This document shows positions 44,558 to 47,539 of a DNA stretch of 64,000 nt, one piece after another. This stretch comes from the human T2T-CHM13v2.0 reference genome, Homo sapiens. Position 1 is the stretch's first letter, and each line of letters begins with the position of its first letter. Both the position numbers and the translations under genes were made by a program. The notes beneath the pieces were generated by a model. That model was given only the letters and a program-made list of their open reading frames with translations. It ran no database searches and was not told the origin of the DNA. Where the stretch lies: assembly GCF_009914755.1 (NCBI RefSeq), contig NC_060933.1, one strand, 5' to 3'.

Positions 44558-44809
44558 ACTTGAGTCCAGGTCTCCTGAGTCCTGGAGGCCCCTAACAAGT
44601 TCAGCATAAACCCTGTGTGAGTGCAATACAGTCTCAAAAACAACCACAGTAACCACAGTGATACATCTATGAGCACTCACTGTGCCCCCAACTCTCAGTG
44701 CATAGTACCGCCCCCACTGTACAGATGAAGAAACAGAGACAACTTGGCCCAGGTCATCCCGCCAGCAAGTGACAGCACAGGACTTTAAATCCAGATACCC
44801 CTGGCCCCA
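44558..44809 (+). repeat. Left arm (source) of a 252/251-nt inverted repeat; includes a MIR core
   Basis: Reverse complement matches 45668-45918 with 3 substitutions and 1 indel by manual alignment. Confidence 0.95.
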
Positions 44810-45490
44810 GCACCTGAGCTCCTTCCTGAGTTCCGGGCCAGGCCCATCTGTAAAACATACCTGGGACCTACACACGTCTGATACAGTATGTCTCCCGACA
44901 CTTTCACCTGCAGACACCCACAGACACTTATTTAGAATCCTAGAGCCTGGGAAAGTGACTTTTTCCCCATCCACAAGCCCAAAGACCTGCAAGGAGCAGG
45001 CTGGGCATTTGTGGAAATGAGTCTCCCTGTCCATAAGACCCAAAGCCCCAGCCCCACTGTGTATGTTTCTCTGCTGCCCATTGTGGATGGCTGTGAGGGA
45101 GGCCAGGAGAGATGGGGAGTGGAGGTCGGGGGGACAAGCCAGGTACTGGCCACAAATATGGCTTGCCAGGGCTGCCTGCACCCAACCAACACACCAGTCT
45201 CCAGGCCCACAATGTGGCATCTGGATTCATAGTCAATCCTCAGACAGGCAGGGACATGCTGTCCACTTCTCCCTGGAAGTTGAGACCAGAGGTGGCAGCC
45301 ACAGCAGTCAATGGCTACTCAGAAATGCCCTCCTACTGCCTCACCTAGTGAGGAGACAGGTATACAGCATGCAAGAAAGACATGAAAACACACCGACTGT
45401 GTGTGGGCAGGCCATGAGATTTACTGGTATTCTACTGCTCCTAAGAGAACACAGGGTTGGTTTTCCTGAGACCCGATTTACTCAAATATC

Positions 45491-46053
45491 TTTTTTTTTT
45501 TTTTTTCTCGAGACGGAGTCTCACTCTGTTGCCCAGGCTGGAGTGAGTGGCACGATTTTGGCTGACTACAACCTCCACCTCCGGGGTTCAAGTGATTCTC
45601 CTGCCTCAGCCACCTGAGTAGCTGGGATTATAGGTGCCTGTCACCATGCCCAGCTAATTTTGTATTTTGGGGCCGGGGTATCTGGATTTAAAGTCCTGTG
45701 CTGTCACTTGCTGGCGGGATGACCTGGGCCAAGCTGTCTCTGTTTCCTCATCTGTACAGTGGGGGCGGTACTATGCACTGAGAGTTGGGGGCACAGTGAG
45801 TGCTCATAGATGTATCACTGTGGTTACTGTGGTTGTTTTTGAGACTGTATTGCACTCACACAGGGTTTATGCTGAACTTGTTAGGGGCCTCCAGGATTCA
45901 GGAGACCTGGACTCAAGTAGAGACCTGGATTCAAGTGGAGACAGGGTTTCACCATATTGGCCAGGCTGGTCTCGAGCTCCTGACCTCAGGTGATCCACCC
46001 GCCACAGCCTCCCAAAGTGCTGGGATTACAGGCGTAAGCCACTGCGTCCGGCC
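45491..46053 (-). mobile_element. AluS split at its central linker by a ~270-nt insertion
   Basis: Right arm 45491-45667, left arm 45937-46053; perfect TSD GATTTACTCAAATATC at 45475-45490 and 46055-46070. Confidence 0.94.
45668..45918 (-). repeat. Right arm (inserted copy) of the inverted repeat, inside an Alu
   Basis: Manual alignment to 44558-44809; ORFs 44525-45220(-) and 45667-45993(+) share the peptide GYLDLKSCAVTCWRDDLGQ...DSGDLDSS for this reason. Confidence 0.95.
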
Positions 46054-47539
46054 TGATTTACTCAAATATCTGAGGGCTCACTGTGTGCCAGGCACAGATC
46101 ACAGGTGTGAACAAGACAGGCAGGGTCTCTGACCTCAGGGAACTTAAAAATCTCCACATGAAGATCTCTGAGCTGCCAAACAGAAGAGCAAAAGTATTCT
46201 ATCAAATCTTTGTTTTTTTTCCACTGAGGAGACAAAGGCACTTGGAGGAATATTTCTATCAATGTAATTAGCAGATGAAACAAAGCTATTAAACATTGGT
46301 GTTTTTTTCCTCTCCTTTTTTTAAGATTACTAAATGAATTTATTCATACGTCAAATAGAAAAACCAACTGGAAAAACCTGTCCCTCAGTAATACATTAGC
46401 CAAAGGAAACAAGTGATCCCCGTTCTCTCACTGAAACCCCCCTTTCCTGGGCAGACCTGCTGTTCACAGGTGTTAAACATTAATTACAACTGTTACTCAT
46501 TACATAGCAAAAAGCATTTGGTACCAACACAATTGTTAATTTCCTCACAGGCTCAAGGCATTCTGGGAAGCTATACAGGGGACAGGAAGCATCATGGGAG
46601 CCTAAGGGGAGCCAGTTTGGAAGAGACAGCATTCTCCTGGCTAGGACAGGTGGTGGTGGTGGCCGGGTTTAAGGTTCTCCAAGGGACCCTCTGCAGATGC
46701 CGGGGCCCTGTTTATTCTGAGCACGTGAAGATGAGTCACATAGCTTGGTGGGAATAGCAAGTGTGGAGCAGTGCCCTACACACACAATGGTGGTGTTAAA
46801 CCAGCTTCAGAGCGACTGTGTTTGAGGGGGACGGTGACAAGTCACGAGGGCAACATGGTATGGGTGCAACTGCTTCTGCCTTGTACCAGTGTGCAAGGGA
46901 ATTCCAGCCTGACCCCAGCCACACACAGGATATCAAGGCAGCAGTGGAGAGAACAAGTGCTGTGCAGTCAGACTGGCCCAAGTTCACAGCTGTGTGACTG
47001 TGGGCAAGCTGCTCACCCTCTCTGAGCTTCACTACTGTCATCTGAGTGACGACAATGAAGTGAACCCTACCTTGCAAGGCTCTGTAGGGTTAACCTATGC
47101 CAGGTTTATAATTATTGCTCAATAAATGTTAATTTCCTGTCCCTGGTTCCTCCCCATCCTTCCTTACCTTAATGGGATTATTTTAAATTAGCTAGTTGAG
47201 CTGGCTCTGAGATGATTCATAGTTGTTTAGGAAATAGACATACCTGGGGCCTTACTTTCCCTTTTAGCCTCATTTGATGAGGCTTTGAAGGTGTCAAAAC
47301 TCAAGAGGGAGGCTGGCTAAGGGGTGATACCATAGCATAAGCACCCCACACGCTGACAGTGTCTAGTGCGTATCTAGCTATTTCCGAATAAACCAATGTA
47401 CTCCAGTACAGGGTGTAGTAGAAGCACAGAGGGGAAGGAACCGGTTGTGTCAGGGAAAGCTTCCTGGAGGAGGTGACTTCCCCTCCCTAACTCTACCCCA
47501 ACCCCACACCTAATACAAAGCATGTACTCTGTACCCTCT

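What the first reader, a model, noticed from the sequence alone, without database searches (positions are those of the whole stretch)
44558..46070. Alu split by a young, inverted, locally templated 251-nt insertion with a stuttered microhomology junction
Seen: an AluS (45491-46053, perfect 16-nt TSDs) is opened at its central T-rich linker with almost no Alu loss and carries 45668-45918, the reverse complement of 44558-44809 lying 858 nt upstream. Only 4 differences in ~252 nt (~98.4%), far fewer than the Alu shows against its consensus. At the right junction the copy ends ...CTCAAGT, continues AGAGAC (as the Alu linker tAGTAGAGAC would), re-copies the last 17 nt of the insert (45920-45936 vs 45902-45918, 1 mismatch) and only then resumes the Alu at 45937; both switches sit on microhomologies (AGT, GAGAC). 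Established: repeated microhomology-primed templated insertions are the signature of polymerase-theta end joining or FoSTeS/MMBIR template switching. Inference: a germline repair event much younger than the Alu, possibly ape- or human-specific, or arms kept alike by gene conversion.
Basis: partly seen in the sequence, partly recalled or inferred. Interest (0 to 1): 0.8.

Follow-up and report, generated by a model that had tools for sequence, protein, structure and literature searches.

The report
Inverted local duplication inside an Alu
An old Alu repeat in an intron of the human SHB gene was later split by a 251-base backwards copy of DNA lying 858 bases upstream, a real but ordinary example of a common kind of small structural mutation.

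Summary
45668-45918 is the reverse complement of 44558-44809, with 3 transitions and one 1-nt deletion. These are the only two copies in the 3.1-Gb assembly. The copy sits in the T-rich linker of an antisense Alu with 17-nt target-site duplications. The Alu lost 0-1 nt. The right junction carries an 18-nt tandem stutter.

The arms differ by 1.2% pairwise. The Alu differs by 7.5% from a consensus of the window's own Alus. So the insertion is much younger than the Alu, unless gene conversion kept the arms alike.

Best reading: one DNA-templated, microhomology-primed template-switch insertion at a break or stalled fork. The enzyme cannot be told from sequence. The stutter may equally be later slippage between two GAGAC repeats.

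It is not unusual. A long-read survey of 1,019 people (PMC12350158, passages) found 277 inverted duplications, median length 284 bp, mostly with 1-15 bp microhomology. That survey searched for templates within 2 kb.

Lineage and population status could not be tested, because no primate or pangenome sequence was reachable. Verdict: a new member of a known kind, of low interest.

The parts
44558..44809 (+). Template (source) segment. Its right two thirds lie in an ancient interspersed repeat that runs on past 44809.
   Evidence: alignment; one of only two genomic copies; nhmmer finds 8 weak relatives of 44640-44830 elsewhere in the window (E 8.6e-05 to 1.1). Four of the 7 aligned extend past the copied end. 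The name MIR for this repeat is recalled, not tested.
45475..45491 (.). Left target-site duplication of the Alu (17 nt)
   Evidence: (D3): identical to 46055-46071.
45492..45667 (-). Alu 3' part: A-tail (read as a T-run on +) and right monomer, up to the linker GTATTTT
   Evidence: blastn to 12 or more window Alus. Metazoa_SRP, minus strand, 37 bits; 13 of 159 mismatches to the window consensus.
45668..45918 (-). Inverted copy of 44558-44809. T 45668 is shared with the Alu T-run (1-nt microhomology). AGT 45916-45918 is shared with the Alu linker (3-nt microhomology).
   Evidence: (I1).
45919..45924 (.). AGAGAC: Alu linker sequence following AGT (first return to the Alu)
   Evidence: intact Alus read AGTAGAGAC here..
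45925..45936 (.). CTGGATTCAAGT: second copy of the end of the insert, with one C>T at 45930. Together with 45920-45924 and 45937 it forms the second 18-nt tandem unit.
   Evidence: D7 and I4.
45937..46053 (-). Alu 5' part (left monomer), resuming at (A>G)GAGAC
   Evidence: Metazoa_SRP, minus strand, 62.5 bits, E 6.2e-15; 7 of 109 mismatches..
46055..46071 (.). Right target-site duplication of the Alu (17 nt)
   Evidence: D3.

Best explanation
One DNA-templated, microhomology-primed template-switch insertion happened long after the Alu had integrated. A 3' end arose at a break or a stalled/collapsed fork in the Alu's T-rich linker. It left its template and paired with the opposite-orientation template 0.86 kb upstream. 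It copied 251 nt there and returned to the Alu on the 3-nt microhomology AGT, with no loss of Alu sequence. The geometry allows two routes. In the first, the left 3' end (+ strand, ...GTATTTT) folds back on its own strand or on the lagging-strand template at 44809, with 1 nt of pairing. In the second, the right 3' end (- strand, ...CTCTACT) invades the upstream duplex at ACT 44558-44560, with 3 nt of pairing. From its length and distance, the event belongs to the replicative (FoSTeS/MMBIR-like, fork-restart) 'inverted duplication' class. The 18-nt stutter arose either in the same event, by a second abortive round of switching on GAGAC and AGT, or later by slippage. Shown here: the anatomy, the uniqueness of the template, the relative youth and the microhomologies. 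Inferred: the break or stall, the order of the switches and the polymerase.
For: The inverted copy has its template retained and only 2 copies exist in the genome. The Alu is continuous across the insert with 0-1 nt lost, and its own 17-nt target-site duplications flank the whole composite. So this is an insertion into an existing Alu. The insert itself has no A-tail and no target-site duplication. Arms differ at 3 of 250 pairwise, against 20 of 268 for the Alu versus a window-derived consensus. P(3 or fewer differences) is 1e-05 even if only half the Alu's divergence is allowed for. The ancient repeat in the source continues beyond the copied end, which gives the direction source to copy. Known class: 277 polymorphic inverted duplications, median 284 bp, mostly with 1-15 bp microhomology, templates sought within 2 kb, and a replicative origin suggested (PMC12350158, passages). 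The MMBIR templated-insertion signature is a nearby inverted template flanked by microhomology, with about 100 germline events of 25 bp or more per person and up to five templates per event (PMC8421209, passages). Switch points are enriched at T-tracts in great apes (PMC7954356, passages), and here the departure point is ...TAATTTTGTATTTT. The excess of changes at the junction (2 of 18 against 3 of 250, P = 0.02) fits error-prone repair synthesis.
Against: No ancestral, uninterrupted allele was seen, so 'insertion' and 'young' rest on internal evidence only. The left junction has only 1 nt of microhomology, which is no more than chance. Nothing in the sequence separates a replicative polymerase from Pol theta or from SDSA-like repair. 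Gene conversion between the arms would make the divergence-based age too low. If repair synthesis was error-prone, some of the 4 differences are not divergence, and the age is then too high. The P = 0.02 for the stutter rests on 2 events.
Confidence: 0.6

Rival explanations
1. Polymerase-theta end joining of a double-strand break. After more than 1.1 kb of resection, the left 3' tail snapped back on itself. It was extended for 251 nt in cis, then annealed to the right end through AGT. Repeated abortive rounds gave the stutter.
For: Same anatomy as the best explanation. Microhomologies of 1, 3, 5 and 3 nt, and a stutter that looks like repeated annealing and extension (D7). Foldback-templated inverted insertions at breaks are documented in yeast (PMC11724301, abstract start in the listing). 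Unimolecular stem-loop extension by Pol theta from 2 terminal base pairs is reported (PMC11292364, abstract start).
Against: The foldback insertions in PMC11724301 are mostly about 5-34 bp, templated next to the break. Here the tract is 251 nt and starts 858 nt away. My recollection (not checked in a call) is that Pol theta templated inserts are usually under about 30-50 nt. No enzyme-specific mark exists in the sequence.
Confidence: 0.2
2. The stutter is not part of the insertion event. The primary junction created GAGAC...13 nt...GAGAC, and later replication slippage between these pentamers duplicated the 18-nt unit. This rival concerns the stutter only and is compatible with either insertion model.
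For: The product is exactly a tandem 18-nt duplication bounded by a third GAGAC (D7). There is no other template in the window. Tandem duplications are 15,295 of 17,029 duplication-type insertions in PMC12350158 (passage).
Against: The two units differ at 2 of 18 positions, more than the arms' rate predicts (P = 0.02). A later duplication should be even more alike than the arms. That argues for low-fidelity synthesis at the time of repair, or for chance.
Confidence: 0.4
3. The event is old (at or near Alu integration, or simply much earlier than the divergence suggests), and the two 250-nt arms have been kept alike by intrachromosomal gene conversion.
For: Inverted repeats 858 nt apart on one chromatid can in principle convert each other (established knowledge, recalled). 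Both CpGs inside the arms are intact in both arms (alignment).
Against: Capture during retrotransposition would need a switch out of the Alu RNA and back to the very next base (0-1 nt lost). On the Alu's sense strand the insert reads antisense to the SHB pre-mRNA (and the gene table given with the finding). Arms of 250 nt are near the lower size limit for efficient conversion (recalled). Youth is the simpler reading of 3 of 250 against 20 of 268.
Confidence: 0.08
4. RNA-templated break repair. The right 3' tail (minus strand, ...CTCTACT) annealed by ACT to AGU of the nascent SHB pre-mRNA and was extended by a reverse-transcribing polymerase. This gives the same inverted product.
For: Strand logic fits. 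SHB is on the minus strand (gene table), and the plus strand of the insert equals the pre-mRNA sense of the source. Templated sequence insertion polymorphisms without L1 hallmarks are described (PMC5110952, abstract start only).
Against: There is no mark of RNA (no splice, no tail), and the source is intronic. The AGAGAC/TACT step of the stutter needs an Alu-linker template of the opposite sense, which the pre-mRNA does not offer. A DNA template lies 0.86 kb away.
Confidence: 0.05
5. Assembly artefact (a fold-back chimera) in this assembly.
For: None found. It could not be checked against reads.
Against: The arms are not identical (3 substitutions and 1 deletion), and the junction carries a diverged stutter. 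A technical fold-back would give identical arms. The Alu resumes precisely and its target-site duplications are intact.
Confidence: 0.01

Closest known systems
Small germline 'inverted duplications' of long-read structural-variant catalogues (SVAN class in PMC12350158)
   Same: The inserted sequence is a reverse-complement copy of DNA within 2 kb of the insertion point. The size (251 nt, or 269 nt with the stutter) is close to the reported median of 284 bp. The junctions have 1-5 nt of microhomology, as in most of that class (passages).
   Different: This one is in the reference assembly, and by its 1.2% arm divergence it is probably old and fixed rather than polymorphic (not tested). It lies inside an Alu linker and carries an 18-nt junction stutter. 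It was not found in the one readable supplementary spreadsheet (0 occurrences of 6 terms, which included approximate coordinate prefixes). The supplementary PDFs could not be read.
MMBIR templated insertions (MMB-TI; PMC8421209)
   Same: The insert is inverted relative to a nearby template and flanked by microhomologies. Multi-step (complex) events are known, and such events occur as germline variants (passages).
   Different: That tool and signature look for templates within 100 bp and for inserts no longer than a sequencing read. Here the template is 858 nt away and the insert is 251 nt.
Short-range template-switch mutations (four-point model; PMC5453318, PMC7954356)
   Same: The product is a reverse-complement 2->3 fragment placed between points 1 and 4. 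The departure point is in a T-tract, as enriched in great-ape events (passages).
   Different: Those studies restrict the template to about 100 nt and expressly do not model long-range or repeated switches. Their events are mostly tens of nt long (recalled).
Foldback / snap-back templated insertions at double-strand breaks (yeast PMC11724301; Pol theta PMC11292364)
   Same: An inverted copy templated in cis from the broken molecule, primed on 1-3 nt.
   Different: The reported inserts are mostly about 5-34 bp and lie adjacent to the break (abstract start only). This one is roughly ten times longer and its template is 0.86 kb away.

Membership tests
Inverted duplication / template-switch insertion | The insert is the reverse complement of a nearby sequence that is itself retained | tested here: met
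   (246 of 250 aligned columns identical, plus 1 gap); I1; both copies present.
Inverted duplication / template-switch insertion | Template within 2 kb of the insertion point (criterion of PMC12350158) | tested here: met
   858 nt between the arms.
Inverted duplication / template-switch insertion | Microhomology of 1-15 bp at the junctions and no long homology | tested here: met
   Left junction T (1 nt, no more than chance); right junction AGT (3 nt); stutter GAGAC (5 nt) and AGT (3 nt). Read.
Inverted duplication / template-switch insertion | Derived state: an ancestral allele without the insert exists | not testable with these tools
   No primate or pangenome sequence is held. This is inferred only from Alu continuity and the divergence contrast.
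MMB-TI / short-range template switch (four-point model) | Template within 100 bp of the insertion | tested here: not met
   858 nt. The criterion comes from PMC8421209 and PMC7954356.
Polymerase-theta (TMEJ) templated insertion | Short insert templated from sequence next to the break | tested here: not met
   251 nt from 858 nt away. The size expectation comes from PMC11724301 (abstract start, yeast foldback) and from recall for Pol theta.
Polymerase-theta (TMEJ) templated insertion | Dependence on POLQ | not testable with these tools
   This needs genetics.
Alu (dimeric SRP-derived SINE) retrotransposed by L1 | Two 7SL-derived monomers, an A-rich linker, an A-tail and flanking target-site duplications | tested here: met
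   two Metazoa_SRP hits on the minus strand; both halves match 12 or more window Alus; a T-run at 45492 onward. D3: 17-nt target-site duplication.
Alu (dimeric SRP-derived SINE) retrotransposed by L1 | Subfamily AluS (diagnostic positions) | not tested
   No curated consensus was available from a tool. Only a majority consensus of 12 window copies was used.
L1-mediated insertion of the 251-nt piece (retrocopy, TSIP class 1, twin priming) | A poly(A) tail and a target-site duplication flanking the inserted piece itself | tested here: not met
   the insert is bounded by GTATTTT and AGAGAC. It has no A/T tail of its own and no duplication flanking it.

The most novel reading that the evidence does not exclude
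The event may be hominine- or human-specific (or even still polymorphic). By creating a ~250-bp, 98.8%-paired hairpin with an 858-nt loop in the SHB pre-mRNA, it may have made a new non-Alu substrate for ADAR editing or Dicer. That would be a large-scale counterpart of the reported birth of hairpin RNAs by template switching (PMC10710096, abstract start only). If an outgroup shows that all 4+2 differences lie on the copy side, the event would also be a germline record of long, error-prone repair synthesis.
Probability: 0.07. Interest if true: 0.45.

Novelty: new member of a known kind. Interest (0 to 1): 0.2.

Why it matters
Taken alone it matters little. It is a clean, fully resolved example of a templated inverted insertion whose ancestral sequence can be reconstructed base for base, because the target was an Alu. 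That makes the junction logic unusually legible: no loss at the break, microhomologies of 1, 3, 5 and 3 nt, and a stutter. It could serve as a teaching case or a benchmark for tools that now look for templates only within 100 bp. Its by-product, a long near-perfect intronic RNA duplex in SHB, is a testable ADAR substrate.

Tried and rejected
(2) Orthologues and population haplotypes: no tool holds primate or human pangenome DNA.
(3) I looked for this locus in the supplementary spreadsheet of PMC12350158, using the class names, SHB and approximate coordinate prefixes. There were 0 occurrences. The GRCh38 prefixes rested on a recalled offset, and three supplementary PDFs could not be read, so this null says little.
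(4) I tried to polarise the differences at 44729 and 44742 with 7 weak relatives of the ancient repeat found in the window. The columns were too poorly aligned (A/G mixed), so no conclusion was drawn.
(5) I searched for another template for the second stutter unit. There is none in the window.
(6) Rfam scan of 44400-46200 at E up to 1: apart from the two SRP hits there were only 4 sub-threshold hits, all inside the Alu (mir-1268, mir-3135, mir-1285, mir-619; 18.7-38.1 bits against gathering scores of 56-83). Nothing hit the insert or the source.
(7) A staggered-break reading, in which AGTAGAGAC would be a duplication flanking the insert, was rejected. Both copies of that motif lie on the right side, 9 nt apart, and do not flank the insert.
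(8) Capture by the L1 reverse transcriptase from the SHB pre-mRNA during Alu integration was rejected on strand sense and on divergence.
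Full report
WHAT IS THERE

A local alignment pairs 44558-44809 on the plus strand with the reverse complement of 45668-45918. The two differ by three substitutions and one single-base deletion:
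- 44579 G against A
- 44729 A against G
- 44742 A against G
- T 44802 is missing from the copy

All three substitutions are transitions and none is at a CpG. There are 858 nt between the arms.

A search of the window's own 3.1-Gb assembly with the 252-nt source found exactly these two places (the tool warns that its counts are lower bounds). So the two arms are not members of a young repeat family or of a segmental duplication.

Within the window, 22 inverted pairs of 80 nt or more lie within 10 kb of each other. The other 21 sit at Alu coordinates and are 72-87% complementary. Only this pair reaches 98%.

THE HOST ELEMENT

Both flanks of the insert match the other Alu copies of the window. 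Both hit the Rfam SRP model on the minus strand:
- 45936-46052: 62.5 bits, E 6.2e-15
- 45508-45654: 37 bits, E 1.5e-07

Both scores are below the gathering score of 70, as expected for Alu monomers.

The element is antisense. It begins with a T-run at 45492 and is flanked by a perfect 17-nt target-site duplication, 45475-45491 = 46055-46071.

I read ten intact Alus of the window across the linker:
- 5 have GTATTTTTAGTAGAGA exactly.
- 2 have the same AGTAGAGAC after a T-run in a different or longer context.
- 1 has AGTGGAGAC.

The split Alu ends on the left with GTATTTT and shows AGTAGAGAC, then AGTGGAGAC, on the right. At most one T of the Alu is missing. This is therefore a pure insertion into an existing Alu.

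DIRECTION OF COPYING

The Alu context already makes 45668-45918 the derived copy. In addition, nhmmer with the source region finds 8 weak relatives of about 44640-44830 elsewhere in the window (E 8.6e-05 to 1.1). This shows an ancient interspersed repeat; I recall it as MIR but did not test the name. In the alignment of 7 of these relatives, four run on past the position where the copy stops. So the source is embedded in a longer old element, and the copy is a truncated piece of it.

THE JUNCTIONS

Left junction: T 45668 can belong either to the Alu T-run or to the copy (source A 44809). That is 1 nt of microhomology, no more than chance.

Right junction: the copy ends ...CTCAAGT (45918). AGT is shared with the Alu's AGTAGAGAC, which is 3 nt of microhomology. 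AGAGAC (45919-45924) then follows as it would in the Alu. Next comes CTGGATTCAAGT (45925-45936), repeating the end of the insert with one C>T at 45930. Finally G-GAGACAGGG resumes the Alu, with A>G at 45937.

Seen another way, 45902-45919 and 45920-45937 are two 18-nt tandem units with 16 of 18 identical, followed by a third GAGAC (D7). The 23-mer 45920-45942 has no other match in the window at up to 3 mismatches (2 matches, itself and the first unit; 0 expected by chance).

RELATIVE AGE

A majority consensus of 12 Alu copies of the window (a rough yardstick) differs from the split Alu at 20 of 268 compared positions (7.5%; 13 of 159 on the left and 7 of 109 on the right). The 12 copies themselves differ from that consensus by 7.7-23.0%.

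The arms differ at 3 of 250 (1.2%), and that figure sums two lineages. Suppose the copy were as old as the Alu, and allow only half of the Alu's divergence to correct for its CpG excess. Then 18.7 differences would be expected, and P(3 or fewer) = 1e-05.

With recalled mutation rates of 0.5-1.0e-9 per site per year, 3 of 250 corresponds to a central estimate of 6-12 My and an outer range of 1.2-35 My. By recollection, a pairwise 1.2% is about the human-chimpanzee distance.

Two effects pull the estimate in opposite directions and cannot be separated here. Gene conversion between the arms would make the event older than it looks. Errors made during repair synthesis would make it younger.

The junction region hints at the second effect. 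The tandem units differ at 2 of 18 positions, where 0.22 differences are expected at the arms' rate (P = 0.02; small numbers).

One oddity is unexplained. Two of the copy-side changes make the same heptamer, GGATTCA, at 45894-45900 and at 45927-45933. The third instance of the motif, between them, keeps GGACTCA.

MECHANISM

The product requires that a 3' end leave the Alu linker, be extended on a template of opposite orientation 0.86 kb upstream, and return to the base where it left. Two geometries give the identical product.

(a) The plus-strand 3' end ...GTATTTT pairs at 44809 with its own strand (a snap-back after long resection, or on the nascent strand) or with the lagging-strand template. 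It copies leftwards to 44558 and then anneals by AGT to the other side.

(b) The minus-strand 3' end ...CTCTACT invades the upstream duplex at ACT 44558-44560, copies rightwards to 44809, and is joined to the left end on a single T. In this version the stutter is an abortive first round: 14 nt are copied, the end re-anneals to its own partner strand through GTCTC/GAGAC, fills in TACT, and invades a second time at the same ACT.

These steps are inference. Only the microhomologies and the order of the segments are shown.

A simpler origin for the stutter is later slippage between the two GAGAC pentamers, 18 nt apart, that the primary junction created. The 2-of-18 divergence speaks mildly against this, because a later duplicate should be more alike, not less.

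COMPARISON WITH WHAT IS KNOWN

The closest match is the 'inverted duplication' class of a long-read survey of 1,019 people (PMC12350158; passages read). In that study:
- Inserted sequences were realigned within a 2-kb window around the breakpoint.
- 277 inverted duplications were the commonest class among 733 non-mobile-element inversions.
- Their median length was 284 bp.
- Only 8.8% had breakpoint homology; most had 1-15 bp of microhomology.
- The authors take this to suggest a replicative origin.

The event here (251 nt, 858 nt away, 1-5 nt microhomologies) is a typical member of that class.

The MMBIR templated-insertion signature is an insert inverted relative to a nearby template and flanked by microhomologies. 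About 100 germline events of 25 bp or more were found in each of two individuals, some with up to five templates (PMC8421209, passages). This is the same idea at a smaller scale, since that tool searches only within 100 bp. The four-point template-switch model (PMC5453318, passages) expressly leaves out long-range and repeated switches. Its great-ape application found T-tracts enriched at the departure point (PMC7954356, passages), and here the departure point is the Alu's T-rich linker.

Foldback insertions at breaks in yeast are mostly about 5-34 bp (PMC11724301, abstract start only). For that reason I rate Pol-theta-type snap-back repair below a replicative route, although nothing in the sequence excludes it.

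An RNA-templated version, using the SHB pre-mRNA, is sterically possible (strand logic and the gene table). It has no positive support.

An assembly artefact is very unlikely, because the arms and the stutter units have diverged.

CONSEQUENCE

On the minus strand, which is the sense of the SHB pre-mRNA, 44540-45940 folds into an almost uninterrupted stem of about 250 bp around the 858-nt loop (MFE -860.4 kcal/mol; no shuffles are run at this length). The fold follows trivially from the repeat. It does predict a long non-Alu intronic duplex that ADAR could edit. I did not test this.

VERDICT

The thing itself is an ordinary, previously unlisted member of a well-described class of small germline structural mutation. 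By 'unlisted' I mean only what my checks cover: the searches turned up no paper on this locus, and one search found nothing in the one readable supplement.

Noticed in passing
window 45894-45900 and 45927-45933 (against 45909-45915): Two of the copy-side changes are the same C>T at the same position of the heptamer GGACTCA, giving GGATTCA twice, 33 nt apart. The instance between them is unchanged. Neither change is at a CpG. This may reflect error-prone synthesis or chance.
   Followed up: partly
window 53165-53438 and 53887-54162: An inverted Alu pair, 86-87% complementary with arms 450-690 nt apart (I4 and I7). It lies about 400 nt from the SHB coding exon at 54537-54752 and is an ordinary candidate for an edited intronic duplex.
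   Followed up: no
window 45605-45656 (-), 45530-45588 (+), 45941-46001 (-), 46015-46098 (+): Sub-threshold Rfam hits to mir-1268, mir-3135, mir-1285 and mir-619 inside the Alu (18.7-38.1 bits against gathering scores of 56-83). I read these as Alu-derived miRNA families matching any Alu, not as genes here.
   Followed up: no
window 63923-63970, 25778-25881, 15542-15664, 19210-19344, 49361-49483, 25961-26088, 27756-27838: Weak relatives of the ancient interspersed repeat that makes up the right part of the source segment (nhmmer E 8.6e-05 to 0.04). They are unmasked or only partly masked in the list given with the finding.
   Followed up: partly
window 44051-44067 and 44429-44445: A 17-nt inverted pair, 94% complementary, 361 nt apart (I3). 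Probably chance.
   Followed up: no
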